This document shows, piece after piece, positions 5,714-52,372 of a stretch of 64,000 nt of DNA. The stretch is taken from assembly GCA_043801165.1 (NCBI GenBank), contig JAZDMG010000028.1:10988-74987 (forward strand), given 5' to 3'. The position numbers and the translations under genes were made by a program. Origin of the DNA: an archaeon (lineage in GTDB: Archaea > Nanobdellota > Nanobdellia > Woesearchaeales > SM23-78). Below the pieces are notes generated by a model. That model did no database searches. It had not been told where the DNA came from and worked only from the letters and a program-made list of their open reading frames with translations. Position 1 is the stretch's first letter. Every line of letters starts with the position of its first letter.

Positions 5714-5998
5714 ATGGCAATACCAAAACCACAGATACCTGAAGACATGAAAGTATTTGATCTGAAAGATGCTGATCTCTGCGTCACCACATGGTACCTT
5801 CGGACCGAACTCATGAATCCCGATAGGAACAAAGGGATCCACAACCTTGAAATGCTCGTCCAGATATTCAAACAAACAGGATGCACTGACTGCGATGGCT
5901 ATAAGCCAGGCTGCTCTGCTAGACATGAACTGAAGTTTACAGAAGCCTATCAGGCATACATGGCTGCCCAGAAGCCGGCGGCGAATAAGAAATCTTAG
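5714..5998 (+). CDS. Small hypothetical protein with a CTDCDGYKPGC cysteine cluster
   Basis: A 94-aa ORF on the strand of its neighbours. I recognised no family. Confidence 0.3.
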   Translation: MAIPKPQIPEDMKVFDLKDADLCVTTWYLRTELMNPDRNKGIHNLEMLVQIFKQTGCTDCDGYKPGCSARHELKFTEAYQAYMAAQKPAANKKS

Positions 5999-6039
5999 GA
6001 TCATATCTCCCGCCCAAAGAGAAACCTTTTTTAACCAGC

Positions 6040-6056
6040 CTTCTTTCTTTTAGATT
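6040..6056 (+). promoter_or_regulatory. Candidate TATA-like element (cttttagattattg) about 25-35 nt upstream of the tRNA-like locus
   Basis: An A/T-rich box sits at the expected archaeal distance upstream of position 6080. No comparable box precedes the intact tRNA-Ser at 6203. Confidence 0.25.
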
Positions 6057-6079
6057 ATTGCGACGCCGTTTTCATTAGT

Positions 6080-6202
6080 GCCGTGGTCGCATATCAGAAA
6101 AACGAAGTTTTTCTGGGATGCAACCACTTACAACAGCGAACTGTCTGAAGTTCGCTGGAGTGAGAAATTCGAGAAACGAATTTCCCACAAAAACAAGTTT
6201 TT
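6080..6202 (+). other. tRNA-like 5' fragment region. The first 14 nt (GCCGTGGTCGCATA) are identical to the 5' end of the downstream tRNA-Ser. It holds several hairpins: CAGAAAAAC-GAA-GTTTTTCTG, CAGCGAAC-loop-GTTCGCTG, AATTCG-AGAAA-CGAATT and CAAAAAC-AA-GTTTTTG
   Basis: The acceptor 5' strand plus 8/9 (TC) plus the D-stem 5' strand (GCA) match the tRNA-Ser exactly through 6093, and the D-stem 3' strand TGC recurs at 6119-6121. Beyond that I could not fold a canonical anticodon arm. Confidence 0.35.
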
Positions 6203-6285
6203 GCCGTGGTCGCATAATCTGGTAGTGCGCCAGTCTCGAAAACTGGTTCCTTACGGAATTCTCGGTTCAAATCCGAGCCACGGCG
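6203..6285 (+). tRNA. tRNA-Ser (anticodon CGA), class II with long variable arm, no intron
   Basis: The acceptor stem is GCCGTGG/CCACGGC. The D-stem is GCA/TGC. The anticodon arm is CCAGT-CTCGAAA-ACTGG. The variable arm is TTCC-TTAC-GGAA. The T-arm is CTCGG-TTCAAAT-CCGAG. The discriminator is G. Confidence 0.8.
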
Positions 6286-6352
6286 TCGAACGAAGTGAGA
6301 CGACGCGGCTGGGCCAAAAACAAAGTGTTTTTGAGTCCGAGCCACGGCGTTT
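6286..6352 (+). other. tRNA-like 3' fragment. It ends with GAGTCCGAGCCACGGCG, identical to the T-stem 3' strand plus acceptor 3' strand plus discriminator of tRNA-Ser, followed by a TTTTTTT terminator. It also contains an AAAAAC-AAAGTG-TTTTT hairpin
   Basis: Fourteen or more nt match the tRNA-Ser 3' end. No 5' T-stem strand (CTCGG) precedes it. An oligo-T7 tract at 6346-6352 is the only terminator in the locus. Confidence 0.35.
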
Positions 6353-6364
6353 TTTTAATTCTCA

Positions 6365-7654
6365 TCAGAAGAAATCATTCAGACCGCTCTGGTTTGGCTT
6401 GGCTGGTTTGTTGACCTTCGCCTTATCTTCGCTCTCGCCATCTCCTGATTCAACCGCAGCCTCTTTGCCGTCAACGACAAGCACTCCGTATTCTCCATCA
6501 TAGCCTGGCTTGACTGTCAATCCAGCGCGCCTGTTCCTCATGATCAGGTCGACAATCTTCCTGCCGGTCACTTTCAGGAGCTCATCCTCACTCACATTAA
6601 GAAGTATATCAAACTCATCCTTGCCTGCCTTCATCACGTTGTAATACTCAGCCCAGACTTTCTTTGAACTCATGGCGCTGCCAAGCTCAAAAGACAGCAG
6701 CTCATGAAGCGGTATTATCCTGATGAATTCAGGAACATCAACAGGCTTGGCCCTGTCAGCCAACTGCTCCACCCTGTTAAGCACTCCTATGGTTAGAGGC
6801 CTCTTGCAGGCAGGGCAGATGCCTTTATTATTTGCTGATTCTTCAGGGCTCATCGACACACCACAAAGCCTATGGCCATCGAAATGGTACTTCCCATAGC
6901 TTGGATCGACCTCTATTGTCCCGGCAAGCCCTGCGCCCGTCCTGATGGCCTTCAGCAGGTTCATGTATGTCAATTCTGCCATCTCAAAAATTGTTGCTTC
7001 GCGTCCTATGCGCCAGGGCCAGAATGAGTGCAGGTCAGAGAAGCTCACAATTTTAATTCCGTCAAGCCCTGAAAGCATCCTGTTCATCTCAGGATCGCTG
7101 CTAAGGCCTGTCTCGATGGCGTGGATGTTCTTTGCTTCTGGCCCGAATGCCTCTTCAAGGCTGTCAAATCCTGTCTTGCTCCCGAATACACCGAACCACG
7201 GCGTCCAAGCATGTGCCGGGATTAATTCAATCTGGTCGCTTATCATCCTAATCTCACGTGCAAAATCAATGCATGATATGCTGAACATCGGCCTGCCGTC
7301 GTAATCAACCCTTCCCTTGCTCTTGAGGTAAGAGGTTATTTTCTCTACTATCGCGAAGTTCGGAGCGAGAACAACAAGATGGACCCGTCTTCCCTTCCCT
7401 CCCTGGGTGTATATCAGCGATATCTCGTTCTGAAGCACGAAAGGAAATCCGGCTTTGGTCCTGAGGATTCCTGTGCCGTCCTCAGCAAGCTCTGTTTTTA
7501 GTTCCTCTATCCATTTCGGATGGGAGAAATCCCCTGTGCCTAGAAGATTTACGCCTTTTATGCGCGCCCATTTCTCAAGGTTGGCTATCGTCAGTTCTGA
7601 AGAACAAGCCCTTGAATGCCTTGAATGGATGTGCAAATCTGCGATTATTTTCAT
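6365..7654 (-). CDS. EndoQ-like PHP-domain endonuclease (archaeal TIGR00375 family) with internal Cys4 zinc-binding motif
   Basis: The N-terminus reads MKIIADLHIHSRHSRA...GVNLLGTGDFSHPKWIEEL, the PHP pattern of EndoQ. A CGVS...CPACKR zinc finger is present. The 429 aa length matches the known EndoQ size. Confidence 0.65.
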   Translation of the reverse strand: MKIIADLHIHSRHSRACSSELTIANLEKWARIKGVNLLGTGDFSHPKWIEELKTELAEDGTGILRTKAGFPFVLQNEISLIYTQGGKGRRVHLVVLAPNFAIVEKITSYLKSKGRVDYDGRPMFSISCIDFAREIRMISDQIELIPAHAWTPWFGVFGSKTGFDSLEEAFGPEAKNIHAIETGLSSDPEMNRMLSGLDGIKIVSFSDLHSFWPWRIGREATIFEMAELTYMNLLKAIRTGAGLAGTIEVDPSYGKYHFDGHRLCGVSMSPEESANNKGICPACKRPLTIGVLNRVEQLADRAKPVDVPEFIRIIPLHELLSFELGSAMSSKKVWAEYYNVMKAGKDEFDILLNVSEDELLKVTGRKIVDLIMRNRRAGLTVKPGYDGEYGVLVVDGKEAAVESGDGESEDKAKVNKPAKPNQSGLNDFF

Positions 7655-7688: not shown

Positions 7689-10100
7689 TCATTCCTTGCT
7701 CAGCTCAGTAATCAGGAATATGAACTCCGAGAGGAAGTTGTTCTTTTCCTCGTCAGGGATGAATGTATCCAGCAGAAGCCTATCTGATTTCTTGTAGAAT
7801 CCTAACAGCAGGACCTTGAGCAGCACAGGCACTCTTGATTCCTTTGCTTTGGAATAGAAGGCTGCATCATCGAATTGGTCAGGCAGCTTGAATATTGAGG
7901 CGTAAATGCTCACTATGGCTGAATGCATCTCTTTGGGGGCGACATTGGTCCTGTTGCTTAAGCCGATCAGCTCTTCCCTATAGCTCTTGAACTCCTCTGG
8001 ATTCATCAACTGCTTCCTGCGCCCCAGAATTTTTATGACCCGACACTTCCTGCAGAACCTGTTCAGCCCAATCATCAGCATGAAGAATTTATTGTTGTCA
8101 TATAATCGTTTTGCGTACTGCGGCCTTGCAAAAACCAAGAATACATAGAACAAGAACACTCCCATTGTTATCAAGAGAATCAAGCCGAGCATGACGAACC
8201 CTAATATATAAGCCTTGAATAAATCAGCGAATGCACATTTCCTGCATGGTCCACCACAATCGGTGAATCTCTCTCCGCCGTTCTTCTTTCCATCGTCACA
8301 GGACGGGCAAGGCGCACATTTTCCGCCGCAATCAACTCCCTCTTCTCCCTGGTTCTGCAGCCCATCCGAGCAATTGCCACAGAGCTTCGGGCATGGGCCC
8401 TCGCAATCAATGCCTTTTTCTCCCTGGTTTCTCACATTATCATGGCATGATGCAAAGGTGCACATCTTGCTCCTGCAGTCAAGGCTCTCACAATCACGGC
8501 CATATTTACAGCTCTGGTTGCCCTGGCATTTTTTGCAGGAGCCGCCGCAGTCAACATCGCTCTCATTCTGGTTGAGCATGCGATCAGAGCAGCTGGGACA
8601 TGGGACACAGGGACCACCACAATCAACCTCTCCCTCACCTTGGTTCTGGATCTTGTCAGAGCAGCTGGGACATGGGACACAGGGACCACCACAATCAACC
8701 CCAGTCTCTATGCCATTCTTGATGCTGTCATTGCATGACGCAGAGTAGATGCACTGTTTTATCTCATCTGGTTTTGTCCTGTTGTCATCGCAGTCTGACA
8801 TATCATTGCATCTTCTCATCTGGAATCCCAGAGGCATGCAAGCCCCCCAAGCAGTGCAGTTCCAGTCAGGCCTGCAACCTTCAAGGTCTCCCTCGCAAAG
8901 GCCGCAGTCAAAAGAGCAGGTGGTGCAATTCTCCCCTTGACCGCAGAAATAATTTCCGCAGAACTCCTCGATGCTCATGTTGCTGAATCGCTTTATGACC
9001 TGGGAATTTATGACATCAACCTTCACTATGTTGCTCTCGGCTGTCGCATTGAACATGTCGCTTGCGATGAAGACAAAATAGGCATATCCCAGGGTTCCTG
9101 TCATCGGATCAAAAAAGACAGTGCCATCCTTTGCAAAGCTCACCCTAATCTGCGCGTAGGCCACAACAAAATCATAGCTTGGCTGCACCTGCCTGAATCC
9201 GAAGAAGAGGCGCCCTCCGTCAGGGTCGCGTATATAATCATTAAGGTCATAGGCGCTTGCTCCTGTGTCGCTGAACAAGACAAACCCAGGCACTTCATGC
9301 ACCAATACAGGAGGCCTGTTGACCTTCAAAACCTGGAACTCCCACACCTGGACTGAAGAGAGATTGTAGGAGTCAGTTATGATCACAGTGATGTTATGCA
9401 CCCCGGAAACATTAAAACCAGGAGTGAACAGCAAAGAGCTCCTGCCAGCAGATCCAACAATAGGTTGTGAATCAAAAAGCCATTCATAGGTGACGGTCTC
9501 TTCCGGATCATCAAGCTCAACCTTGACCGAGAAATTTATCGTGGCTGTCTGGTTTGTGCCGAATTCATCCAGGGCAGGCTTGGCATCAACTATCTTTGGC
9601 CTGACAAACACCTCTAAAGTGACTATCGCGGTGTCTGCGCATGAGCCTTTTACAGCCACGACCGCGATTCGCGAAGAGCCTCTGTCAGATGATTTCGGTG
9701 TGAAATCAAGCACTCCATCTCTTGAAAGGTTTATCCCTGCAAGATTCCTGCCAAGCAAAGCATAGGAATATATCACGCCTGCTTCGCCCATGTTGCTGAG
9801 GTTGAAATCATAGCTGAAAGAGACATCTTCTTTTAGCACAAATCTCTCAGGAAAGATTATCTTTGGGGTGTTGGTGATATCACAGGCTCCCTGGACCTCT
9901 TGGCATAGGATGATGATTGCACTAATCATGATTATCGCTAGCCAGGCATTCCTGCCAGAACCACACGGATGGCATATCTCGCGGCCTAAAACACTCAACC
10001 TCTTCCCTCTGATTTTAAATTTGATTAATCGTTTATCATAACACGCCATTAGAAGTATAAAAATGTAGCTATTTTCAGGCACGGAACGACAGACGGCCAC
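7689..10100 (-). CDS. Type I membrane surface protein. It has an N-terminal signal (alternative start ATG at 9928, MISAIIILCQEVQGA), a cadherin-like region with DPDGG, six or more Cys-rich 24-aa repeats (DCGGPCVPCPSCSD...NQGE), one TM helix and a cytoplasmic tail of about 150 aa
   Basis: A hydrophobic N-terminus is present. The repeats have the form (V/I)DCGG(P/S/K)C.(P/K)C(P/Q)SC.D...NQ.E. The TM segment reads FKAYILGFVMLGLILLITMGVFLFYVFLVFA. Confidence 0.5.
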   Translation of the reverse strand: MAVCRSVPENSYIFILLMACYDKRLIKFKIRGKRLSVLGREICHPCGSGRNAWLAIIMISAIIILCQEVQGACDITNTPKIIFPERFVLKEDVSFSYDFNLSNMGEAGVIYSYALLGRNLAGINLSRDGVLDFTPKSSDRGSSRIAVVAVKGSCADTAIVTLEVFVRPKIVDAKPALDEFGTNQTATINFSVKVELDDPEETVTYEWLFDSQPIVGSAGRSSLLFTPGFNVSGVHNITVIITDSYNLSSVQVWEFQVLKVNRPPVLVHEVPGFVLFSDTGASAYDLNDYIRDPDGGRLFFGFRQVQPSYDFVVAYAQIRVSFAKDGTVFFDPMTGTLGYAYFVFIASDMFNATAESNIVKVDVINSQVIKRFSNMSIEEFCGNYFCGQGENCTTCSFDCGLCEGDLEGCRPDWNCTAWGACMPLGFQMRRCNDMSDCDDNRTKPDEIKQCIYSASCNDSIKNGIETGVDCGGPCVPCPSCSDKIQNQGEGEVDCGGPCVPCPSCSDRMLNQNESDVDCGGSCKKCQGNQSCKYGRDCESLDCRSKMCTFASCHDNVRNQGEKGIDCEGPCPKLCGNCSDGLQNQGEEGVDCGGKCAPCPSCDDGKKNGGERFTDCGGPCRKCAFADLFKAYILGFVMLGLILLITMGVFLFYVFLVFARPQYAKRLYDNNKFFMLMIGLNRFCRKCRVIKILGRRKQLMNPEEFKSYREELIGLSNRTNVAPKEMHSAIVSIYASIFKLPDQFDDAAFYSKAKESRVPVLLKVLLLGFYKKSDRLLLDTFIPDEEKNNFLSEFIFLITELSKE
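8585..8700. repeat. Tandem 72-bp near-identical DNA repeat inside the surface protein gene, encoding the CGGPCVPCPSCSD units. More degenerate copies lie at about 8260-8580
   Basis: The block cagagcagctgggacatgggacacagggaccaccacaatcaacc occurs at 8585 and again at 8657. Confidence 0.8.
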
Positions 10101-16900: not shown

Positions 16901-16984
16901 GTATACCCTCGACTTGGAATATTCGGTTCGATTTCCAACCGATGTATATATTACTTCGTTCGAATGCCCCTGCTGGGATTTGAA

Positions 16985-17087
16985 CCCAGCTCCCAAGCTC
17001 CGCAAGCTCGTATACTATTTGCTTTAGCAGCAGTTCTCTGCCGTTATCCAAGCTATACTACAGGGGCTTATGTACAGCGTTAGCGTG
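16985..17087 (-). tRNA. Intron-containing tRNA of 103 nt, tentatively tRNA-Arg (anticodon GCG), with a non-canonical intron of about 28-31 nt in the D-loop region
   Basis: On the minus strand the acceptor is GCCCCUG/CAGGGGC plus A, the T-arm is CUGGG-UUCAAAU-CCCAG and the anticodon arm is CGAGC-UUGCGGA-GCUUG. GUAU occurs twice, as D-stem strands with G-U pairs, flanking about 39 nt that is D-loop plus intron. Confidence 0.55.
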
Positions 17088-36701: not shown

Positions 36702-37139
36702 GGCATAAAAGATGCCAATAACAAATACTAGAATTAGAATTAAAACTATGAATTTTTTTTTTCATAACATCTAACTTAATATTAGTGTTTATATATTTAC
36801 TTAAAAACGCGTAGTTTTATTTTAGACTTGGAATTCTTATTAGCCCCAATCTTTGACTTAAAAGTATAGTAGCCCCGCTCGGACTTTCGCCAGCCTTTTC
36901 TAAAAAAGGTTGTTTCGAACCGAGGTCCCAGGACATTCTCAGCCAGAACAGACGTCCACGGCTTCCAAAATCCCGGATGACTGGTCTAAAAACAGAGTTT
37001 TTGGACTTTCAAAAATCTCTGATTTTTGTTTGACCACTACACCACGGGGCTATAACGCAGATGTTGGAAGCTATGCTTTATAAATCTTTTTGGGCGAAAA
37101 ACAAAAAACTATAAATAAGCTCGGCCGTTTCTTTGGCAG

Positions 37140-41153: not shown

Positions 41154-41303
41154 AAAAATAAAGCTATATAAAGGAGCGATTGATTCTTCGAATAAAGCTG
41201 TATTATGGGGCTGTAGTATCACCCTTAGAACCTAATTCTGGCTTATACAAACAATGCAGTACAAATGCATTACAAAGTATAAAAATGCTGACCTCCACAC
41301 GGA

Positions 41304-41732
41304 ATGAGAGGAGGTTGGAAGATGATAGACCCATTTGAAAGGACGAGATATATCAAAAACATTGTGCAGATGATATATCCTAAAATATCTCATGAGGAGC
41401 TGAATACCTGCATTCAAAGGATAGCAAAGCACAAGTATAGGAAGCAGATGAAGCTGTCTGAGAAAGAGAGCGTCATATGTGATTTGCTGCTTCAACACCA
41501 GATAAAGCCAGCTACAGCGTATCTCTGGTACAAGGTCCGTAACCTTCCGGCTTATTTACAGCAAGAGATCAGAGACCGAAAGCTGAGCATGACAGAAGCT
41601 TTCCAGAAGAACCTTGAAAGCAACAAGCCAATCCAGGTGCTGGGTGAAGAGCTTGGCAAGGAGATCCAGGAATACGTGAATGAACTGGCCAAGAGAGACT
41701 TCTTGAGGGGTGATGACTATGCAATTCAATGA
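41304..41732 (+). CDS. Hypothetical protein upstream of and overlapping the integrase. Possibly an excisionase or regulator-like protein
   Basis: A 142-aa ORF that overlaps the integrase start by 23 nt. Confidence 0.3.
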   Translation: MRGGWKMIDPFERTRYIKNIVQMIYPKISHEELNTCIQRIAKHKYRKQMKLSEKESVICDLLLQHQIKPATAYLWYKVRNLPAYLQQEIRDRKLSMTEAFQKNLESNKPIQVLGEELGKEIQEYVNELAKRDFLRGDDYAIQ

Positions 41733-42651
41733 TCAGGCTCCTGAAGAGCTGTATTCTCAGATAAAAGACAATAAGATGTCTCAAAGGCAGAAAAGATTCA
41801 TCATACAAGCTTTGAAAGAGCAAGGTTTCAAGGTCAAGAAGCAGCAAAAGAAATGGGTCCAGAGAAATAGAGGTAAGCTTCCCTTCAAACCGTCTGACCT
41901 GCCAAGAATCTTTGAGAACATGGACAATCTTAACGTCAGAATGGCCTCATTGGTCGCCCTTGTGACCGGCACAAGGAGGGCTGAGACTGTTGAGATCCTA
42001 AAGAAGAACATTGACCTTGAAGAATGCCGGATTAGGCTTGAGATAACCAAGAAAGGAGTGCCCCAAGACGTCTACTTCCCACAGTCATTCGCGCCCCTCT
42101 TACGGAAATGGTGCCATTACACCAGGGATAGCCCTTTTTTGCTGCCTCACAGGCTAACACCTAACAAGCCCATATGCCTTGCCTCGCTCAATTCTGGGCT
42201 TTCTAAGGCCCTAAAAAAGGCAGGGATGGCAGAAGCCATGTACGTCAAGGAAAACGGGCATACGGTCCAGAAATACGGCTTTCATAGCTTCAGGAAGTTC
42301 TTCTGCAGTATGCTCGTCAACAACGGGGTAAAGCCAGAGGTGGCAAGGATCCTTATGAGGCACGAAAAGGTAGAGCTGACTTTGAAGGTTTACACCCACT
42401 TAGGCAGAAAGACCCTAAACCAGGCCATGGAAAGGATAGACCCAATGTCAAGTTTTGGACTCAAAGAACCAAGACAACAAGACACCCCAAAAACACCCCA
42501 AATAGGCCAACAATTCGCAAACCAGAGCATACTGCTCTTCAACGACTACAGGAATGGAAAGATAAACAAGGAGGAGTATGAACAGAGCAAACAGGAATTA
42601 ATAAGTTTACAAAAAGTGTTTGATAATCACACCAATAATGAAATTCAATAG
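41710..42651 (+). CDS. Tyrosine recombinase / phage-type integrase
   Basis: The C-terminal catalytic box HSFRKFFCSMLVNNGVKPEVARILMRHEKVELTLKVYTH gives the R..H..R..Y pattern. The N-terminal segment LVALVTGTRRAE is present. Confidence 0.8.
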   Translation: MMTMQFNDQAPEELYSQIKDNKMSQRQKRFIIQALKEQGFKVKKQQKKWVQRNRGKLPFKPSDLPRIFENMDNLNVRMASLVALVTGTRRAETVEILKKNIDLEECRIRLEITKKGVPQDVYFPQSFAPLLRKWCHYTRDSPFLLPHRLTPNKPICLASLNSGLSKALKKAGMAEAMYVKENGHTVQKYGFHSFRKFFCSMLVNNGVKPEVARILMRHEKVELTLKVYTHLGRKTLNQAMERIDPMSSFGLKEPRQQDTPKTPQIGQQFANQSILLFNDYRNGKINKEEYEQSKQELISLQKVFDNHTNNEIQ

Positions 42652-42659
42652 CGAATAGG

Positions 42660-43187
42660 TTAAAATTTATCTGGAAAAATAATTTTGTGATTATCAAATA
42701 ATGGATCCTTTGGAACATTCATAGCCTTGTACATCTCGCTTAATAAAAATATTATTGAGAAAGAAGCGACGAAAAAAGTGATTTGAGGGTATGCTGGTTT
42801 GTTGTCTTTTGAAAGTATATCACGCATTTTCTTATCAAGAGAGATATCGCCTAAAGTAAAAAACCTATCCATGGTTTTCTTAGGTATCGTGTCTTTTTTT
42901 ATAATACCGTGAGCAAAGTCATTTCTAATTTTATTTACCAGGATTATCCTATTATATAATGTTTTTCTATCTTCAAAAAAACCTAAAGAATCAAGGAGTC
43001 TAACTTTACTCATAAAAGATTTTAAATGTTCGTTCTCAAAAATCACTTTTGAATTTTTAAAATATTTTTCAATAATCTTATCAATCAAGTATTCTATATT
43101 CAAGTGAAGAAATAAAACATGAAGTCTAATATCATCAATTTTTCTCAACTCTGCAACAACATCAGTGTAATATGCCCTGAAATCCAT
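42660..43187 (-). CDS. HEPN-like (Abi / DUF4145-like) protein with Rx4H motif (RNDFAHG)
   Basis: NKIRNDFAHG matches the HEPN Rx4-6H signature. It is the second gene of a 2-gene minus-strand pair in an AT-rich island. Confidence 0.4.
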   Translation of the reverse strand: MDFRAYYTDVVAELRKIDDIRLHVLFLHLNIEYLIDKIIEKYFKNSKVIFENEHLKSFMSKVRLLDSLGFFEDRKTLYNRIILVNKIRNDFAHGIIKKDTIPKKTMDRFFTLGDISLDKKMRDILSKDNKPAYPQITFFVASFSIIFLLSEMYKAMNVPKDPLFDNHKIIFPDKF

Positions 43188-43200
43188 TCACAATCCCTCG

Positions 43201-43659
43201 CTATTGTTTTTCAAATTCGCGTATATACTCCTTAGTTCTCTTTAAAGTATATCTGGCAAGTTCCAAGCTTTTTTTTATTTCTTTGATATCTTCCTCGTGC
43301 TCAGGTAACAACTTTTGCAATTCTGACAAACTTCTTTCTGCCAGGATGTCATTAATTTTTATTTTCCAAAATAGGATGCCTTGCTTCCTTCTTTTTGCTG
43401 CTCTTTTCACAGATTGACTTAGTGAAGCTGCTGCTCTTTGCAGAGGGGCGGATTCAAATTGTTCAGTGGGTTGATAAATTATTCTTCCGTACTCATCTGC
43501 TGTGCAGATTAAAGAGCCGTTATTGACACATAAACTTTTAGTATCCCACTTCAAGTATTTTAGAGCTTTTGAAGGTACAGCGAGAGCATAACTGGCTTTA
43601 GAAGGGTCTTTATGTGGTTTGAATTGGAGTTTTAGTTTTCTTTTGTATAACTCGAACAT
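43201..43659 (-). CDS. Hypothetical protein, upstream partner of the HEPN-like gene (13-nt gap)
   Basis: A 152-aa ORF. The N-terminal region may form a beta-barrel-like DNA-binding fold (AbrB-like?). This is uncertain. Confidence 0.3.
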   Translation of the reverse strand: MFELYKRKLKLQFKPHKDPSKASYALAVPSKALKYLKWDTKSLCVNNGSLICTADEYGRIIYQPTEQFESAPLQRAAASLSQSVKRAAKRRKQGILFWKIKINDILAERSLSELQKLLPEHEEDIKEIKKSLELARYTLKRTKEYIREFEKQ

Positions 43660-43753
43660 AATATTAGGTAATACTAAGCCGTATATAAAATTTCCCTATC
43701 GGGAAGAAAAAAGTCCCGATTGCGATATAAACACGTAGTAATATCGGTTTATC

Positions 43754-43897
43754 ATGCAAGAGATAATAACCTTCAAAATCAGCAAAGAGATAAAAAAAGA
43801 AATTCTTCAGAGGGCAAAAGAAGAAGAAAGAAATCTTTCTGAGCTCTGTCGATTATTAATAAAAAATCATCTCAGAGATAAAAATGGCAAAAAGTAG
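43754..43897 (+). CDS. Small ribbon-helix-helix (CopG-like) protein of about 47 aa. It is not in the ORF track
   Basis: MQEIITFKISKEIKKEILQRAKEEERNLSELCRLLIKNHLRDKNGKK gives a beta-strand then two helices. It overlaps the next ORF by 14 nt. Confidence 0.4.
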   Translation: MQEIITFKISKEIKKEILQRAKEEERNLSELCRLLIKNHLRDKNGKK

Positions 43898-44078
43898 AAC
43901 TATACAATTTCGATGTACAAAATCTCAGTTCGAGCGCATTCAGAATAAGAAGGAGGCTTTAGGTTATACTAAACTTTCTGATTTTCTTAGGGATTTGACC
44001 CTAAAAGACGAATTAGCATCATATTCTCTCATCAGAGAGATACACCAACGAGTGGTGGGAGGTAACAACAAGGGTTGA
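43884..44078 (+). CDS. Second small RHH-like protein
   Basis: IQFRCTKSQFERIQNKKEALGYTKLSDFLRDL gives an RHH pattern. Confidence 0.4.
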   Translation: MAKSRTIQFRCTKSQFERIQNKKEALGYTKLSDFLRDLTLKDELASYSLIREIHQRVVGGNNKG

Positions 44079-44273
44079 TAAGTTTTGAGAGGGATTGATA
44101 ACGGCCAGGTTTCAATGGGTCGTTATCATCCTTCTTTTATAAATTTTGTACTGAATTTGATTTGAGCCTATTAGGAGGCTATTGAATAATTTGTTGAGTT
44201 TAGGTTTTTCATGAAATCTAAACTAAATCAAACATGACTGTAAGAAACGAATTGAAAATTAGGAGGAGGTATT

Positions 44274-44594
44274 ATGAAGAATAACAGCGATCGAATAGTA
44301 TCAGTAAATCTCAGCCATAAGGCCATGTACGGGTTGATCCATGCAGGCATTATTGATGGCAGGGATAAGAACGTAAGAGAAGGTTCCGATATCAGCTTAT
44401 CAAGGTTTATAAGCGACTTGGTGGAGAGATATGTAACTGATAATGTCAAGGAGGCTCTCATTAATTACTATCAAGTCCGAATTGAGGAAGGGAATAACCG
44501 GCAGGAGGATATTGCCAATCAGAACAGACAATTTGCTGAAAAAATTAAGAAAATCAAAGAGAAATCAAGGGAGGACGATGATGAGCACAGATAA
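44274..44594 (+). CDS. Hypothetical protein on the island
   Basis: A 106-aa ORF with a charged C-terminus. Confidence 0.3.
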   Translation: MKNNSDRIVSVNLSHKAMYGLIHAGIIDGRDKNVREGSDISLSRFISDLVERYVTDNVKEALINYYQVRIEEGNNRQEDIANQNRQFAEKIKKIKEKSREDDDEHR

Positions 44595-45051
44595 ACAAGT
44601 TGAGGCTAATAGGAAGAACGCTCAAAAAAGCACCGGGCCTGAAGATTGCGATAGGTCCAAGTATAACGCAGTCAAATATGGCTTGACATCAATCAGTCAT
44701 TTTTCAAAAGAGGAAGAATCAACCATAAATGACATATACAACGATTTAGGTCAAATACTCACACCTAAAGATAAGCTTCAAGAGTTTCTCTTGGGCAGAA
44801 TGGCGCTGTATATGTGGCGGCTTCAGAAATCATCTCAAATTGAACAAAAACAGTTCAAGAACTCATTAATAGATTCACAGAATAAACAGGGCAATAAAGA
44901 TAAACAATTCATTCAGGAAATTCAAGGGCGTAAACCTAATATAACTGGTGAGAATATAGACACCAATATTGACTTGATTATGAGATATGAATCTACCAAT
45001 GAGAACAGATTGATTAGGCTTGTTAAGTTCTTCAAAGAGCTACAAACATAA
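44443..45051 (+). CDS. Hypothetical protein. The likely start is ATG 44578 (MMSTDKQ)
   Basis: An ORF whose upstream part overlaps the previous gene. Confidence 0.3.
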   Translation: MSRRLSLITIKSELRKGITGRRILPIRTDNLLKKLRKSKRNQGRTMMSTDKQVEANRKNAQKSTGPEDCDRSKYNAVKYGLTSISHFSKEEESTINDIYNDLGQILTPKDKLQEFLLGRMALYMWRLQKSSQIEQKQFKNSLIDSQNKQGNKDKQFIQEIQGRKPNITGENIDTNIDLIMRYESTNENRLIRLVKFFKELQT

Positions 45052-45298
45052 AATTGGCTTCGTTTAGCAAAAAAACCATCAAAAACGGTTAAAGAGAAGA
45101 CCAAATAAGGGCACTTACAAGCAACGTATAAGCTCGAGACAAGCACGAGGATTTCATAAAAAACCTGACAAACTGGACACTTGAAAAGGGGCACCAAAAC
45201 ATAGCTTAGGACAGTGACTGCGTTTCACAAAAACATGCTTGTTTTAATCTACTCACTCAAAATTTTGCATTATTAACGATCAATAGTGCCATTCCGTC

Positions 45299-45592
45299 TT
45301 AGTTCCCTTCTTGTGTTTCTCTTGCTTTCCAGTAGCATTCTTCGTAGTTTGTTGCTTTGTTTTCGAATAAGCATTTTTCTTGTGTTTCTTGGAAGTCTTC
45401 TGCGTTTATTAACTCATCTACACAGTACATTAGCGTAGCGTTGACTTTTGTCAGCTCATCTTTTGTTCTCCTCGTTTCTTTGTCGGTTAATAACACAAAT
45501 CCTACAAGAAGCAAAATCCCTACTGCAAATGCAATACTTAGTGCTTTCCAGTTGATTCCTTTTGCTTTCATCATTATCGACCCCCATACCAT
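45299..45592 (-). CDS. Small membrane protein with one TM
   Basis: The TM reads WKALSIAFAVGILLLVGFVLLT. Confidence 0.3.
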   Translation of the reverse strand: MVWGSIMMKAKGINWKALSIAFAVGILLLVGFVLLTDKETRRTKDELTKVNATLMYCVDELINAEDFQETQEKCLFENKATNYEECYWKARETQEGN

Positions 45593-45628
45593 AGAACTTA
45601 ATCATAGTTTTTAAATTTTCTTATGTTG

Positions 45629-47866
45629 CTACTTAAAGTCTTGCGTGGCGACATAGTAAAGCCCATCATAAGCCACACCCACGCCGATAACATCGTATTG
45701 TGGGTTCAAAATGTTACTTCTGTGCCCGGGGCTATCCATCCAGGAAGAAACTTGGGCGCGAGCTATGCTGTCCGGGTTAGAAGAAACATACCCTATGCCT
45801 TGGACGTTGCCTGTTGGCATTTTTCCTATGTTTTCGGCAACACCGATTGAATAAGATCCTCCTCCCAGAGATTTGTAAGCGTTATAACCGGCCCTGGCGG
45901 CTCTGGCACTCGGATCCTCGCCTTTCAGATTGGTATGTGCAAAGAAGTCATTCTCAACCATGTCCAGGCTGTGTGCTCTGGCTATATCTGCTAATTTATC
46001 ATCCCATGTTAAGGCTCTTAAACCTTGGCTTTTTCTTTCTGCGTTGGTGTATTCAAAAATGGCCTGTTCAACCTCTTTTGTTCTGTTAGAAACAGGCTGC
46101 GGAGGCGCTGTTATCTCTTCAAATGTCGTCTTCACTGCTTCGGAGCCGCTTTTAGCGATCTCAGAAACGTCATCAGCAATTTTAGATCCTTTTTCCTTTA
46201 GCTTCATCTCTTTTATTCCTGTAGAAATAGAATCAAAGAATGATGAAATCCCAATCCAAACCTTATCTAAAGAGAAGTTCCCCTTTTTAGGCTCATCTTT
46301 AAGCACTTCTTCAACAGATTCTTCCTTCGGGATCAATGTTATCTCTCTCGTTACGGTTGTGGTCTGCTTTTCGGCTGGCACAATCTCAGAAACAGTTAAT
46401 TCAACCCCGGGATATTTCCTGCTTAACACGCCAGTTATCTTGTAAACGTCTTTGGTGGTTCCTTTCTTGACGAACAATGCCTTTTGTTCTTGAGTAAGCA
46501 TTCTCAAAGGGATGCTCCTCCCAACATCATCTACTACAGAATCAACATATACGCCTCCTTGTTTAGTTCCTTCGATATCATTTTGGAGATAACCTTTCAA
46601 AATGACCTCTTTCTTATCGTATTCAGCCCAATTTACAAGGTATTCCCTCAAAGAAATCTCAACAGGAACCGCCTCCGTAATGGTTGTTCTTGTAGGCTCT
46701 TGCTTGGTATCGTTAGTTGAAACGGCATCCTGTGTCTTTGGCTGCATTAAAAAGACTATCAGAACGGCAACAGCTATGAGAACTAAAACAATTATAAGCG
46801 AGGTGAGTGCTGCTTTTAGCAGATTCGTATAATTCCGCGATCTTTTCTTAATCGGTTCTGATGCAGTCTGTTCTTGGTTAGCTTGGACTCCTTTTTCTGA
46901 TTCGCATTCGGTCTTCAATTGATATGATTCAGTGATTTTCTCTGGAATACCATAAAGTTTTGAACATCTGTGTTCCTCTGCGCGTTTGTGTTCTTCACAG
47001 AAATGTTCGTGACAATATCGGCATTCATAGGAGTGTTTTTTTAAGTCTTTATTGCAGGAATAGCATTTTTTCAGAATGGCCACGGGTTTCTTATCGTAAG
47101 TTATAAGCTCAGATTTCTTCACCTTGCCTTGCTTGACAGGATTACTCTCTCTTTCAATTGTCGGATACTTTGTAAGATCAATTGTTATTTGACGTTTCGA
47201 ATTATCAAGAATTTTGCCGAGGTTTTTTGAATATCTTTCGCTTTCTTCTTTTTTTTCAATTTGAAGTTTAAGGGCGTACTCTGTACAAGGATGGCCTCCT
47301 TTGTCTTCATCATTCAATCGATCTATTGCAGAAGGGTTATTGAAGTTTCTGAGGTAAGGATGTTTAGCTCTTACATGCTCTTCGCAAAAGAACAACTTGC
47401 AGTAGGGACATTGATGAAGAACTCTCCTTTTACGGCATCGAGCGTCATTACACTTAGAGCGGTCATCTCTATACGGATGTTCTGGCTTGGTTTTCTCTTC
47501 CTTAACATTTCCACCCCCGTGATATACGCCGCCAGGAGGTCTCCATATACGTTGACTTGTTGTTTCCATCTCGTTATAGAACGCAGTTGAATGATTATTT
47601 TCAAAGAGGTGCATGGTCTCATGAATGGCAGTTTCCCTGATCTCTTCGTTGCTTAACCTTTGTAAAATAGCCTTCCTGATACAGATAATGCCTAAATGAA
47701 CATGTATATGAGCTACTTGATCATTGCCGCCAAAAGGACAATCACCATCCCAAAACTCCACACGAGGAGGTTCTAAACCCCTGCTCTTTGAAGCTTCCGC
47801 AACATACTTCAGGAACAAGACTTGTTTATCGCTCATAATACGTCCAATGAATTCCCGACTATCCAT
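45629..47866 (-). CDS. Multidomain membrane protein: N-terminal zincin-like metalloprotease motif (HETMHLFENNH), two AN1-type zinc fingers, one TM helix, an extracellular linker and a C-terminal CAP/SCP (PR-1-like) domain
   Basis: The motif is HExxHx5H. The AN1 pattern Cx2Cx10Cx2Cx4Cx2Hx5HxC occurs twice. The TM reads LIIVLVLIAVAVLIVFLM. The CAP blocks HTN, GENI and GHRSNIL...IGVGVAYDG are present. Confidence 0.5.
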   Translation of the reverse strand: MDSREFIGRIMSDKQVLFLKYVAEASKSRGLEPPRVEFWDGDCPFGGNDQVAHIHVHLGIICIRKAILQRLSNEEIRETAIHETMHLFENNHSTAFYNEMETTSQRIWRPPGGVYHGGGNVKEEKTKPEHPYRDDRSKCNDARCRKRRVLHQCPYCKLFFCEEHVRAKHPYLRNFNNPSAIDRLNDEDKGGHPCTEYALKLQIEKKEESERYSKNLGKILDNSKRQITIDLTKYPTIERESNPVKQGKVKKSELITYDKKPVAILKKCYSCNKDLKKHSYECRYCHEHFCEEHKRAEEHRCSKLYGIPEKITESYQLKTECESEKGVQANQEQTASEPIKKRSRNYTNLLKAALTSLIIVLVLIAVAVLIVFLMQPKTQDAVSTNDTKQEPTRTTITEAVPVEISLREYLVNWAEYDKKEVILKGYLQNDIEGTKQGGVYVDSVVDDVGRSIPLRMLTQEQKALFVKKGTTKDVYKITGVLSRKYPGVELTVSEIVPAEKQTTTVTREITLIPKEESVEEVLKDEPKKGNFSLDKVWIGISSFFDSISTGIKEMKLKEKGSKIADDVSEIAKSGSEAVKTTFEEITAPPQPVSNRTKEVEQAIFEYTNAERKSQGLRALTWDDKLADIARAHSLDMVENDFFAHTNLKGEDPSARAARAGYNAYKSLGGGSYSIGVAENIGKMPTGNVQGIGYVSSNPDSIARAQVSSWMDSPGHRSNILNPQYDVIGVGVAYDGLYYVATQDFK

Positions 47867-47898
47867 CTTAAATCAATCCCTCAAATCAATTACCCGAT

Positions 47899-48210
47899 TC
47901 ATCGCATCTTATAAGGTATCCTCTTCTTCTCCAATAATATTTTCCTTATTTTCTGGCGAATCCAATGACCACGATAAGTCCATGGTTTATATGTAACATG
48001 ACTGGAATCAATAGCAATCCTGACGAGTTCGTTTTTTGTTGGAGCGCGACCATATTTTCGCTCGAATTTGCTGATCAACCTATTGAAGTCCCTGTTAGCT
48101 CTGACAATCATGCTCCGGGGGAGAAGAGGCTTTTTAGGTCTTGGAAATAACAGACTTCTTATCCAAAAAAATATTCCTCTAAGAAAACCTTTTCTACGGT
48201 AGCGTCTCAT
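47899..48210 (-). CDS. Small basic hypothetical protein
   Basis: A 103-aa R/K-rich ORF. Confidence 0.3.
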   Translation of the reverse strand: MRRYRRKGFLRGIFFWIRSLLFPRPKKPLLPRSMIVRANRDFNRLISKFERKYGRAPTKNELVRIAIDSSHVTYKPWTYRGHWIRQKIRKILLEKKRIPYKMR

Positions 48211-48296
48211 GTTTTACTAACAGCACCCCCTAAAAGCGCAGAAGTCTTTTTTAGCTTATAAACATTAGCAAAAAAACTAAGAAAACAAAAAATTCT

Positions 48297-48509
48297 CTAC
48301 GGTTGTTTGGCAGTTTGTATCGCGTATAAAACCAACACCAGAGCTAATGCTCCCCCAAGCTTTTCATAATTAAGATTTATATTAAATACGATAGATATAA
48401 AGATAATAAAGAAAAATATTGAGAGTATCAAAAGAACAGTCTTTATTCTCTTTTTCCTCAACCAGCTCTCATCTCGTTCTATTCCCTTCTTACTTCGGCT
48501 CATAATCAA
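48297..48509 (-). CDS. Small membrane protein
   Basis: 70 aa with one TM. Confidence 0.25.
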   Translation of the reverse strand: MIMSRSKKGIERDESWLRKKRIKTVLLILSIFFFIIFISIVFNINLNYEKLGGALALVLVLYAIQTAKQP

Positions 48510-48585
48510 ATAAGTATATGAGCCTGCTTAATAAAGTTTATTACTGGGAAAAGAATTAAATATTAGCTTAGAGTATCTCAAATAA

Positions 48586-49101
48586 ATGAGCAAAAAAGGC
48601 ATAAGATTCAAAGCTAAATACGAAAACAGAATTGCAGAAGAATGTGAAATTAAAGAAACACGAGATGGTTCTAAAATTATCATTCCAAAGAAGGAAAATA
48701 GTGACGGACTTCATGCATCATTACACCCTTCAGGAATTTTTAATCTTAGCTCTGGCAAAAGTTATGTCTATGATTTTCTTAACAACCCGAAATTAAAAGA
48801 ATTCGTTGAAAAAAGAGTAAACGATCTTGAAAAGATTGATTGTCCTATCTTTGCCATCATTTTAGATTTAAGAGATATTAAAAAATATGCATCTATAAAG
48901 GACAACGAGCACATCGTTGATTTTGATGCCTATTTCATGGAATCAGAACAAGTAGAAATCCAAAATGATGATTTTAGTTTTGTTTTGAAATATAATGAAC
49001 CATTCTATGAAATAATTGTATTTGATGAGGAATTAAATGCATTTTATGCTGCGAAGAACAAACCAGGTTATGGCATGCCTTTAAATCCAAAAAAAGATTA
49101 A
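48586..49101 (+). CDS. Hypothetical protein
   Basis: A 171-aa ORF in an AT-rich segment. Confidence 0.35.
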   Translation: MSKKGIRFKAKYENRIAEECEIKETRDGSKIIIPKKENSDGLHASLHPSGIFNLSSGKSYVYDFLNNPKLKEFVEKRVNDLEKIDCPIFAIILDLRDIKKYASIKDNEHIVDFDAYFMESEQVEIQNDDFSFVLKYNEPFYEIIVFDEELNAFYAAKNKPGYGMPLNPKKD

Positions 49102-49177
49102 CTGTAGCGTGGAGAACCGATTGAATCTAACCAGGCCATGTAATTGAGCTTATCAGTATTACGAGAAACAACGAAGT

Positions 49178-52290: not shown

Positions 52291-52372
52291 ACATTTCTTT
52301 ATTTTTTTATTAGCCCCTTATTTTAAAACCAAAATTTTATAAACTCCTAACTTTTTCAGCAGAGTAGACCAC

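What the first reader, a model, noticed from the sequence alone, without database searches (positions are those of the whole stretch)
6040..6352. An intact tRNA-Ser(CGA) is nested between fragments duplicating its own 5' and 3' termini, with three AAAAAC-N-GTTTTT hairpins, in one promoter-terminator unit
Positions 6080-6093 repeat the first 14 nt of the tRNA-Ser, covering the acceptor 5' strand, 8/9 and the D-stem strand. Positions 6336-6352 repeat its T-stem 3' strand, acceptor 3' strand and discriminator, followed by the only oligo-T terminator in the locus. The intervening 120-nt upstream block has the D-stem 3' strand TGC and a 21-nt hairpin exactly where a D-loop intron would sit. It also has an 8-bp helix with an 8-nt loop where an anticodon/BHB intron structure could sit. 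A TATA-like box precedes 6080 but not the intact tRNA. This could be a second tRNA-Ser isoacceptor with multiple large introns, possibly one that contains a whole tRNA gene. It could be a split or tri-split tRNA. It could be a pseudo-tRNA left by a duplication or integration event. Any of these is unusual.
Basis: seen in the sequence. Interest (0 to 1): 0.7.

Follow-up and report, generated by a model that had tools for sequence, protein, structure and literature searches.

The report
tRNA-Ser gene flanked by end stubs
A normal serine tRNA gene of a DPANN-type archaeon lies between short leftover copies of its own first and last 14 bases; these are most likely scars of DNA insertions at both ends of the gene, not a nested, multi-intron or split tRNA.

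Summary
Exact 15-nt direct repeats (6079-6093 = 6202-6216; 6272-6286 = 6336-6350) bracket an intact tRNA-Ser(CGA) at 6203-6285, and three AAAAAC-N-GTTTTT hairpins are present. The nested, multi-intron or split-tRNA reading is not supported. No second tRNA body exists. No bulge-helix-bulge (BHB) splice motif can form in the required register. Any splice would only recreate the inner tRNA.

The outer 5' stub sits at the spacing from a TATA-like box that two other tRNAs in this window show. The outer 3' stub carries the T7 terminator.

The same window holds a full-size example. tRNA-Pro has an 11-nt 5' stub, then a tyrosine integrase and an 8.5-kb low-GC block, then the intact gene, a 147-nt insert, and an 18-nt 3' stub with T6.

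Related metagenomic tRNA-Ser loci show 0, 1 or 2 five-prime stubs, all ending at tRNA position 13-15, with unrelated spacers.

Three things stay unexplained: why most inserts are tiny (46-147 nt), why they are hairpin-rich, and why the stubs sit inside long palindromes. A transposon-like 15-bp target duplication remains a live rival.

Verdict: a new member of a known kind, of modest interest.

The parts
6048..6055 (+). TATA-like box TTTTAGAT, 24 nt upstream of fragment A; probably the native tRNA-Ser promoter
   Evidence: Sequence. The box lies at -32..-25. tRNA-Gln (TTTATAAA 37084-37077) and tRNA-Arg (TTTTAAAT 17100-17093) of this window have theirs at -33..-26. Promoter function is inferred.
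6079..6093 (+). Outer 5' stub ('fragment A'): T plus tRNA positions 1-14, identical to 6202-6216
6083..6127 (+). Long imperfect palindrome or hairpin (H_A). It pairs stub positions 4-14 with ATGCAACCAC. Its apex is AAAAAC-GAA-GTTTTT (6098-6112).
   Evidence: I1, 86% complementary. (dG -23.2 kcal/mol, z -6.2).
6094..6201 (+). Insert X (108 nt), with no ORF. It contains hairpins at 6134-6157 and 6160-6188. Its ends are inverted-repeat-like: AAAAAC-N-GTTTTT-(C/G)TGGGA at 6098-6118 against 6183-6202.
   Evidence: No other copy in the window or in the loci fetched by then. No similarity to the LAGLIDADG regions of relatives.
6203..6285 (+). Intact, intron-less tRNA-Ser(CGA), anticodon at 6237-6239, CCA not encoded. 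This is the working gene.
   Evidence: ARAGORN. Rfam 56.8 bits, full-length model match. Cloverleaf centroid.
6287..6335 (+). Insert Y (49 nt). It begins with the trailer motif (T)CGAACGAAGT. It then carries an imperfect inverted copy of the 3' stub and the AAAAACA-AAG-TGTTTTT hairpin (6316-6332).
6298..6352 (+). Long hairpin (H_C) that pairs essentially the whole 3' stub with 6298-6311
   Evidence: dG -26.7, z -3.3..
6336..6350 (+). Outer 3' stub ('fragment C'): tRNA positions 60-73 plus T, identical to 6272-6286
6350..6356 (+). T7 run; probably the native terminator of the tRNA-Ser gene
   Evidence: Outer 3' stubs are followed by oligo-T in every comparable locus. A homologous GGCG-T6-A-TTC junction lies next to the EndoQ stop codon in relative L081.
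6365..7654 (-). Endonuclease Q gene, convergent with the tRNA locus. It was used as the synteny anchor.
   Evidence: P0001 is 100% identical and named 'endonuclease Q family protein'.

Best explanation
The working gene is the inner, contiguous tRNA-Ser(CGA) at 6203-6285. The two outer pieces are the original 5' and 3' ends of that gene. They still sit next to its native promoter (TATA-like box 6048-6055) and its native terminator (T7 at 6350-6356).

Two separate site-specific DNA insertions displaced them, one at each end of the gene. Each insertion rebuilt the gene end and left a 15-nt direct repeat, as attL/attR cores do when an integrative element enters a tRNA gene. What now lies between the repeats (X, 108 nt; Y, 49 nt) is either a heavily deleted remnant or an element that was always miniature.

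Inferred, not shown: transcription starts near 6080 and runs through X, the tRNA and Y to the T7 run. The inner tRNA is released by 5'-leader and 3'-trailer processing (RNase P or an equivalent, and tRNase Z), and CCA is added. The stubs are locked in local hairpins (6083-6127 and 6298-6352), so they do not compete for the acceptor strands. The T5 runs inside the leader may terminate part of the transcripts.
For: 1. Repeats. The repeats are exact, 15 nt each, and confined to the tRNA termini.

2. Promoter and terminator. The outer 5' stub lies at the same TATA-to-+1 spacing as tRNA-Gln and tRNA-Arg of this window. The inner start at 6203 has no TATA at that distance. In all five loci with a 3' stub that I compared, the stub is followed by oligo-T and the intact gene is not.

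3. Positive control in the same window. tRNA-Pro(GGG) at 49685-49759 has these parts:
- an 11-nt 5' stub at 41207-41217 with an upstream TATA-like box;
- then a tyrosine integrase at 41710-42651 (PF00589 1e-19; phrog_1 integrase 6e-29);
- then a low-GC block at 42.5-49.5 kb (0.29-0.41 mostly, against 0.43-0.47 in the flanks);
- then the intact gene, a 147-nt insert and an 18-nt 3' stub followed by T6.

4. Recurrence with unrelated spacers. Counts of 5' stubs are: L082 one (15-16 nt), L088 one, L090 two, L032 one, L087 and L091 none. L032 also carries a diverged 58-nt 5' pseudo-copy and a 26-nt 3' stub. All 5' stubs end at tRNA position 13-15.

5. The stubs track each genome's own tRNA. The window has GCCGTGG/CCACGGC and L081/L082 have GCCGCGA. 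Together with the unrelated spacers this implies repeated independent events at the same site.

6. Some stubs are decaying or come from another allele. The L081 3' stub has 2 mismatches in the T-stem. The L082 3' relic CCGTGGCG belongs to a different acceptor allele. The L032 58-nt copy has paired differences in its anticodon stem.

7. Frequency. Of 45 ARAGORN tRNA calls in 753 kb of fetched DNA, 7 have a copy of at least 12 nt of their own end within 500 nt.

8. Published model. The integration model for tRNA fragments in archaea is described in PMC3293823 and in bioRxiv 10.1101/2022.07.05.498093.
Against: - No integrase or any ORF lies between the Ser repeats.
- X and Y have no copies elsewhere in the window or the loci fetched by then.
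- No viral contig carries the tRNA ends.
- By my tally over the loci examined, about 11 of 13 inserts are only 46-147 nt. That is not the broad size range expected from random decay of kilobase-sized elements.
- A 14-15-nt identity segment is short. Archaeal att sites cited in the papers read are 44 bp.
- The stubs are embedded in long palindromes topped by A5/T5 hairpins. A simple att model does not predict this.
- The 11-nt Pro stub alone is not statistically strong (BLAST E 0.79). Its weight comes from its position next to the integrase.
- There are no transcript data.
Confidence: 0.55

Rival explanations
1. Transposon-type insertion. A casposase-like or other enzyme made 15-bp staggered cuts and inserted small hairpin-ended DNA segments. 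Gap repair then duplicated the 15-bp target (a target site duplication, TSD). X and Y would be miniature non-autonomous elements rather than decayed integrative elements.
For: - Both repeats are exactly 15 nt.
- The two targets are mirror images about the acceptor-stem inverted repeat. The + strand reads TCCGAG-CCACGGC-GT. The - strand of the 5' repeat reads TATGCGA-CCACGGC-A (read). One enzyme could therefore have hit both ends.
- X has inverted-repeat-like ends, about 17 of 21 positions (I6).
- The A. boonei casposase makes a 15-bp TSD at the 3' end of tRNA-Pro, next to the T-loop (PMC5137440).
- The inserts are consistently small.
Against: - Y and the Pro insert have no terminal inverted repeats (read).
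- X, Y and the Pro insert share no sequence, so they are not copies of one element family.
- Repeat lengths in other loci range from 11 to 26 nt or more, and some carry mismatches or long diverged tRNA segments (L032, L088). That fits attP/attB homology better than a TSD.
- No Cas1 or PolB was found among the roughly 45 larger ORFs of the window that I scanned, whereas two tyrosine recombinases were.
Confidence: 0.17
2. Local rearrangement without a mobile element. Tandem duplication of the tRNA gene, slippage or template switching (fold-back synthesis) occurred, followed by internal deletions. This left a 5' stub from one copy, an intact middle copy and a 3' stub from a third.
For: - Both stubs sit in long quasi-palindromes (6083-6127, 6298-6352), a typical product of fold-back template switching.
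- L088 looks like a tandem duplication of the promoter plus the first 14 nt.
- L090 has three tandem 5' copies.
Against: - It needs several precise deletions that happen to end at the same tRNA position (13-15) in different lineages.
- It does not explain foreign-allele stubs (L082 3' relic, L032 58-nt copy).
- It does not explain the integrase-linked Pro case in the same window.
Confidence: 0.13
3. The outer pieces are real exons of a tRNA-Ser gene whose 'introns' include the inner copy (nested or multi-intron), or the locus is a split tRNA. The mature tRNA would start at 6080 and end at 6349 after cleavage by the splicing endonuclease.
For: - The TATA box is placed for a start at 6080, with the same spacing as at tRNA-Gln and tRNA-Arg. 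If this archaeon made leaderless tRNAs and lacked RNase P, the inner 5' end could not be formed.
- The genome does carry tRNAs with D-loop and T-loop introns.
- The stubs are identical to the inner ends.
Against: - No BHB exists in any register that yields a tRNA, although the same scan finds the Gln T-loop BHB.
- The central helices would lie in identical, non-palindromic repeats.
- There is no second anticodon arm or T arm.
- The spliced product would equal the contiguous inner gene.
- In relatives the stubs vary in number (0-2), decay, or come from other alleles.
- In L081 and L091 a LAGLIDADG ORF abuts the tRNA 5' end, so long leaders must be processed in this clade.
Confidence: 0.04
4. 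The leader and trailer are selected RNA elements. Possibilities are an attenuator built from the T5-containing hairpins, or decoy or chaperone structures that control tRNA-Ser(CGA) output. The stubs would be functional parts of them.
For: - The leader and trailer segments fold far better than shuffles, with z from -3.3 to -6.2.
- A hairpin that closes on the D-stem strand follows the 5' stub in several lineages and covaries: GCAT...ATGC in the window and L090, GCTT...AAGC in L082.
Against: - Spacer sequences and lengths are unrelated between lineages.
- Stubs are absent from L087, L091 and the 5' side of L081.
- There is no Rfam match.
- The palindromes can arise mutationally.
Confidence: 0.08

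Closest known systems
Partial tRNA genes (attL/attR direct repeats) left by integrative elements in archaeal tRNA genes. Examples: SSV1 and pNOB8-type elements, the 5' fragment tRNA-Thr-F of Caldiarchaeum subterraneum (PMC3293823), and Thermococcaceae examples (bioRxiv 10.1101/2022.07.05.498093).
   Same: There is one intact gene plus a short direct repeat of its terminus. The displaced stub keeps the native flank. 5' or 3' termini are the usual targets. The tRNA-Pro locus of this window shows the full form, with an integrase.
   Different: At tRNA-Ser both ends are affected at once. The repeats are only 15 nt, against the 44 bp cited in those papers. The DNA between them is 108 and 49 nt with no gene. 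The stubs sit in long palindromes.
Casposon integration (Aciduliprofundum boonei casposase; PMC5137440)
   Same: It makes a 15-bp target site duplication at the 3' end of a tRNA gene next to the T arm. Mini-elements and short duplexes can be inserted in vitro.
   Different: No casposase or PolB was seen in the window. Y has no terminal inverted repeats. The duplication here covers 14 nt of the tRNA, whereas 5 nt overlap in A. boonei. A second event lies at the 5' end.
Multi-intron, split and tri-split archaeal tRNAs (Nanoarchaeum equitans and Caldivirga maquilingensis, named from my own knowledge; reviewed in PMC3218864 and PMC4090602, which appeared in search results but which I did not read)
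   Same: Pieces of a tRNA are separated by non-tRNA sequence in a lineage rich in non-canonical introns. Three tRNAs with introns are present in this window.
   Different: There is no BHB at the junctions, an uninterrupted copy is present, there is no separate anticodon-bearing piece, and there are no complementary leader and trailer sequences for trans-splicing.

Membership tests
Archaeal intron-containing tRNA (spliced by the BHB endonuclease) | A bulge-helix-bulge (or relaxed BHB) motif at both exon-intron junctions, in a register that yields a cloverleaf | tested here: not met
   The scan recovers the tRNA-Gln T-loop BHB (TTCG/CGAA, bulges AA|A and AG|T). It finds no BHB that joins a 5' exon ending within the 5' repeat (up to 6093) to the matching point before 6217, or one ending at 6271-6286 to the matching point in 6336-6351. 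At the 59/60 register the central helix would be TTCA/TTTG, which gives 2 of 4 pairs.
Archaeal intron-containing tRNA (spliced by the BHB endonuclease) | The gene is interrupted, so no contiguous functional copy exists at the locus | tested here: not met
   A contiguous 83-nt tRNA-Ser(CGA) scores 56.8 bits.
Split or tri-split tRNA | Separate pieces that together supply all tRNA arms, joined through complementary flanks that form a BHB | tested here: not met
   The outer pieces supply only positions 1-14 and 60-73. No extra anticodon arm or T arm is found at Rfam E<=10. No suitable BHB is found.
att-site remnants of an integrative element in a tRNA gene | [quoted passage not shown] | tested here: met
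att-site remnants of an integrative element in a tRNA gene | An integrase or other element genes between the repeats | tested here: not met
   X (108 nt) and Y (49 nt) carry no ORF. The feature is met for tRNA-Pro in the same window.
att-site remnants of an integrative element in a tRNA gene | Related genomes show the unoccupied site or differently occupied sites | tested here: met
   L087 and L091 have no stubs. L081 has about 830 nt with a 230-aa ORF between the tRNA and its 3' stub. L082, L088, L090 and L032 have other spacers. These relatives are distant: EndoQ identity is 71-81% for L081, L082 and L091, and unknown for the DNA-pattern loci.
att-site remnants of an integrative element in a tRNA gene | A matching attP on a free element or virus | tested here: not met
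   No exact match to the tRNA ends in IMG/VR. The search required exact matches of 20-27 nt, so it is only a weak test.
Casposon or transposon insertion | A target site duplication of fixed length (14-15 bp for casposons) | tested here: met
   Both Ser repeats are 15 nt. Other loci vary from 11 to 26 nt.
Casposon or transposon insertion | Terminal inverted repeats on the inserted DNA | tested here: inconclusive
   X has them: 6098-6118 against 6183-6202, about 17 of 21 positions. Y and the Pro insert do not (read).
Casposon or transposon insertion | A casposase (Cas1) and PolB in the genome | tested here: inconclusive
   None was found among the roughly 45 larger ORFs of the 64-kb window that I scanned. 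The rest of the genome was not available.

The most novel reading that the evidence does not exclude
The tiny, hairpin-rich inserts may not be decayed proviruses. They may instead be products of a dedicated process in DPANN-type archaea that repeatedly inserts short palindromic DNA at fixed points of tRNA genes (after position 13-15 and at about position 59/60) and duplicates about 14-15 nt of the tRNA terminus. Each event would leave a stub-insert-gene arrangement. After loss of the inner duplicate, such an arrangement could become a non-canonical D-loop or T-loop intron or a split gene. That would make these loci caught intermediates of tRNA intron gain and gene fragmentation.
Probability: 0.15. 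Interest if true: 0.65.

Novelty: new member of a known kind. Interest (0 to 1): 0.3.

Why it matters
As it stands, this is mainly an annotation lesson. In intron-rich DPANN genomes, short copies of tRNA ends next to an intact gene look like exotic nested or split tRNAs. Here they behave like insertion scars, and the intact inner gene is the one to annotate.

The finding has some wider value. The same arrangement recurs at tRNA-Ser in several uncultured lineages, always breaking at tRNA position 13-15. The inserts are unusually small and palindromic. If a specific enzyme makes them, they would bear on how archaeal tRNA genes acquire non-canonical introns and become fragmented, which the papers read here (PMC3293823) describe as unresolved.

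Tried and rejected
1. Hidden second tRNA. An Rfam scan of 5900-6500 at E<=10 gave only the known tRNA and a chance snoRNA hit.

2. Outer-exon splicing. My own BHB scan, with the intron-bearing Gln, Arg and Tyr genes of the window run alongside, found no hit in a usable register. The scan is permissive and lists many chance motifs, so only the register test is informative.

3. X or Y as multi-copy miniature elements. BLAST against the window and the 90 loci fetched by then found no other copy and no similarity among X, Y and the Pro insert.

4. X as a remnant of the LAGLIDADG gene that occupies the same place in L081 and L091. Local alignment scores were no better than shuffles.

5. A viral or plasmid attP. 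Three exact-pattern scans of IMG/VR found nothing.

6. Synteny through EndoQ in GTDB representative genomes. The best hit is 64% identical and the tRNA neighbourhood is not conserved. Closer relatives had to come from the protein search and contig look-ups.

7. C/D or H/ACA guide RNAs in X. I saw no box C and no pseudouridylation pocket on inspection, and Rfam found nothing.

8. Assembly artefact. This is unlikely, because 14-15-nt repeats are shorter than the k-mers assemblers commonly use and the same layout appears in independent assemblies.

9. The exact EndoQ protein is not indexed for contig look-up, so no strain-level variants of this locus could be examined.
Full report
**What is there.** Positions 6203-6285 encode a complete, intron-less tRNA-Ser(CGA). 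ARAGORN calls it and Rfam RF00005 scores it 56.8 bits over the full model. CCA is not encoded.

Two exact 15-nt direct repeats bracket the gene. TGCCGTGGTCGCATA occurs at 6079-6093 and 6202-6216; this is one T plus tRNA positions 1-14. TCCGAGCCACGGCGT occurs at 6272-6286 and 6336-6350; this is positions 60-73 plus one T. The 14-mers occur nowhere else in the window, against chance expectations of 0.05 and 0.15 matches.

Three AAAAAC-N-GTTTTT palindromes lie at 6098-6112, 6189-6202 and 6316-6332. The window holds five such sites against 0.12 expected. A T7 run follows the outer 3' copy at 6350-6356. A TATA-like TTTTAGAT at 6048-6055 lies 24 nt before the outer 5' copy.

**Organism and context.** The locus lies between a 94-aa ORF and a convergent endonuclease Q gene at 6365-7654. 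A dnaK-dnaJ cluster lies upstream. The closest EndoQ homologues are from Woesearchaeota, Pacearchaeota and Nanoarchaeota MAGs (best 64%). The protein database holds the identical sequence from an NCBI 'archaeon' MAG, and relatives at 81%, 77% and about 71% identity.

The genome is rich in non-canonical tRNA introns that the standard finders miss:
- tRNA-Gln(UUG) at 37051-36870 (-) has D-loop, anticodon-loop and T-loop introns.
- tRNA-Arg(GCG) at 17067-16965 (-) has a D-loop intron.
- tRNA-Tyr at 52372-52494 has a canonical-position intron.

**Test of the nested, multi-intron or split reading.**
- Rfam at E<=10 finds no second tRNA-like body in 5900-6500. The upstream block is a series of plain hairpins with no anticodon arm or T arm.
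- I wrote a BHB scan with this geometry: outer helix, 4-bp central helix, 3-nt bulge cut after its second base, on both strands. It recovers the Gln T-loop intron (TTCG/CGAA, bulges AA|A and AG|T, 30-nt intron). It finds no motif in the Ser locus whose cuts would join fragment A to position 15, or position 59 to fragment C.
- This follows from geometry. The central helices would lie inside the direct repeats, which are identical and not self-complementary. At the one boundary register (59/60) the helix would be TTCA/TTTG.
- Any such splice would only reproduce the inner tRNA, so there is no second isoacceptor to be made.

**What the relatives show.**
- L081/L089 (EndoQ 81%). A frameshifted LAGLIDADG ORF runs into the 5' end of an orthologous tRNA-Ser(CGA) that has D-loop and anticodon-loop introns. 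About 830 nt with a 230-aa ORF follow the gene. Then comes CTCCGTTCCGCGGCG plus T6 next to the EndoQ stop codon. This is a 3' stub with two T-stem mismatches, in the same place as fragment C.
- L082-L084 (77%). A 15-16-nt 5' stub GCCGCGATCGCTTAA lies 46 nt before the gene. Downstream lies a relic, CCGTGGCG|TCGAAAAC, of a different acceptor allele, preceded by another AAAAAC-N-GTTTTT hairpin.
- L091 (71%). An intact LAGLIDADG ORF overlaps the tRNA 5' end. There are no stubs.
- Loci found through the tRNA's variable and T arms in metagenomes. L087 is plain. L088 has a duplicated promoter plus the first 14 nt. L090 has two upstream copies of the first 13 nt.
- L032, a Woesearchaeota MAG contig. 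It has a 14-nt 5' stub, a diverged 58-nt 5' pseudo-copy with paired anticodon-stem differences, the intact gene, and a 26-nt 3' stub.

All 5' stubs end at tRNA position 13-15. The spacers are unrelated in sequence and length, and each stub matches its own genome's tRNA. Outer 3' stubs are followed by oligo-T and the intact genes are not. Rfam calls only one tRNA-Ser at each of the stub-bearing loci L003, L032, L088 and L090.

In 753 kb of fetched DNA, 7 of 45 ARAGORN tRNA calls carry a copy of at least 12 nt of their own end within 500 nt. One of the seven is bacterial: L080, which carries bacterial rRNA.

**A full-size example in the same window.** tRNA-Pro(GGG) at 49685-49759 has the same stub-gene-stub layout:
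- Its first 11 nt recur at 41207-41217, behind a TATA-like box.
- A tyrosine integrase follows immediately at 41710-42651.
- A block at 42.5-49.5 kb then follows, with GC mostly 0.29-0.41 against 0.43-0.47 in the flanks.
- After the gene come a 147-nt insert and an 18-nt 3' stub followed by T6.

This is the classic signature of an integrative element in a tRNA gene. It shows that such events occur at tRNA 5' ends in this genome and leave the native upstream region with a short stub.

**Best explanation.** The outer pieces are the original ends of the tRNA-Ser gene. They were displaced by two insertion events that each rebuilt the gene end and left a 15-nt direct repeat. The inner gene is the functional one.

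The promoter spacing supports this. The TATA 8-mer lies at -32..-25 before fragment A and at -33..-26 before tRNA-Gln and tRNA-Arg. There is none at that distance before 6203.

Transcription from about 6080 to the T7 run is inferred, not shown, and so is processing of a 123-nt leader and a trailer of about 65 nt. The presence of long leaders in this clade is supported indirectly by the LAGLIDADG-tRNA arrangement in L081 and L091.

Both stubs are buried in stable hairpins: 6083-6127 (dG -23.2, z -6.2) and 6298-6352 (dG -26.7, z -3.3). These hairpins would keep the stubs from competing with the acceptor stem. From general knowledge of archaeal termination at oligo-T, the T5 runs in the leader may terminate part of the transcripts.

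**What remains unexplained.** The Ser inserts carry no genes and have no other copies. No attP-bearing element was found. By my tally over the loci examined, about 11 of 13 inserts are only 46-147 nt.

The two Ser repeats are both exactly 15 nt and are mirror images about the acceptor-stem inverted repeat: TCCGAG-CCACGGC-GT, and on the other strand TATGCGA-CCACGGC-A. This pattern, together with X's inverted-repeat-like ends, resembles the 15-bp target duplication made by a casposase at a tRNA 3' end (PMC5137440).

Against that rival, Y lacks terminal inverted repeats, repeat lengths elsewhere vary from 11 to 26 nt, some stubs are diverged or foreign alleles, and the window holds two tyrosine recombinases but no Cas1 or PolB among the ORFs scanned. 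The long palindromes around the stubs could reflect template-switch mutation or selection for sequestration. I cannot decide between these.

**Comparison with what is known.** The closest described phenomenon is the partial tRNA gene left at the border of an integrated element. The model for Caldiarchaeum tRNA-Thr includes a 5' fragment upstream of the reconstituted gene and links such events to intron gain and gene splitting (PMC3293823). Such fragments are reported as a pervasive source of mis-annotated tRNAs in Archaea (bioRxiv 10.1101/2022.07.05.498093). The Ser locus meets the repeat and flank criteria. It fails the 'element genes between the repeats' criterion, so I file it as a remnant-type member of this kind rather than a demonstrated provirus border. 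It is not a member of the intron-containing or split tRNA families, because their defining BHB feature was tested and not met.

**Verdict.** This is a new member of a known kind, with interest 0.3. A modest chance (about 0.15) remains that the small palindromic inserts mark a dedicated tRNA-end insertion process relevant to tRNA intron origin.

Noticed in passing
window 36870-37051 (-): tRNA-Gln(UUG) with three introns (D-loop, anticodon loop, T-loop 59/60). ARAGORN and Rfam both missed it at gathering score. The T-loop intron has a textbook BHB (UUCG/CGAA, bulges AA|A and AG|U). The D-loop intron carries two A5/T5 palindromes, including 36988-37002.
   Followed up: partly
window 16965-17067 (-): tRNA-Arg(GCG) with a D-loop intron of about 29 nt. 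Both finders missed it. A TATA box TTTTAAAT lies at -33..-26.
   Followed up: partly
window 41207-49926: A probable 8.5-kb integrated element in the 5' end of tRNA-Pro(GGG). It has an 11-nt 5' stub (41207-41217), a tyrosine integrase (41710-42651) and a low-GC block of cargo ORFs that includes a 745-aa CAP-domain protein. The intact tRNA is at 49685-49759. A 147-nt insert follows, then an 18-nt 3' stub (49909-49926) running into a T6.
   Followed up: partly
window 6286-6296 and 16953-16963 (-): The 11-mer TCGAACGAAGT occurs exactly twice in the window. Both copies lie within 1 nt of a tRNA discriminator base (inner tRNA-Ser and tRNA-Arg). tRNA-Tyr is followed by TTCGAA. This may be a shared 3'-trailer signal or a shared insertion border.
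   Followed up: partly
L081 5304-6012 (-), L089, L091 5910-6629 (-): A LAGLIDADG homing-endonuclease ORF lies directly upstream of tRNA-Ser(CGA) and reads into it. Its stop codon falls in the tRNA D-loop: TAA at positions 13-15 in L081 and TAG at 16-18 in L091. This is the same region where the 5' stubs of other lineages end. It may be an endonuclease that targets the tRNA-Ser gene.
   Followed up: partly
L032 931-1300 (+): A Woesearchaeota tRNA-Ser(UGA) locus. In order it has a 14-nt 5' stub, a diverged 58-nt 5' pseudo-copy, the intact gene with a 14-nt intron, and a 26-nt 3' stub. A repeated hairpin CTGTAYACAAAATCAAAGATTTTGTTRTA lies on both sides of the intact gene.
   Followed up: partly
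L090 1962-1725 (-) and L088 491-638 (+): L090 has three tandem copies of the first 13 nt of tRNA-Ser(UGA). Each of the two stubs is followed by a hairpin closed by GCAT/ATGC. L088 has a tandem duplication of the TATA-like promoter plus the first 14 nt. ARAGORN mis-calls the L090 gene as an intron-containing tRNA-Ala.
   Followed up: partly
L080 about 8050-8560 (-): On a bacterial contig that carries bacterial 23S and 5S rRNA, tRNA-Gly(GCC) is preceded by a copy of its promoter plus 46 nt. A 3' part-copy with an insertion in the T-loop follows it. Rfam also calls the upstream part-copy as a weak tRNA (38 bits).
   Followed up: no
window 6061-6069 / 6280-6288: A perfect 9-nt inverted repeat (CGACGCCGT / ACGGCGTCG) lies between the region just upstream of fragment A and the inner tRNA 3' end plus 3 nt of trailer. 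It is probably chance, since it lies upstream of the inferred transcription start.
   Followed up: no
window 8584-8700: A 45-nt exact tandem-type direct repeat with 72-nt spacing lies inside the 803-aa Ig-like (Big_9) ORF at 7689-10100 (-).
   Followed up: no
window 54351-54366 and 54620-55453 (-): The fifth AAAAAC-N-GTTTTT palindrome lies just after a stop codon. It is followed by an AT-rich intergenic region and a Xer-like tyrosine recombinase (PF00589 2e-50 plus the SAM-like N-terminal domain).
   Followed up: no
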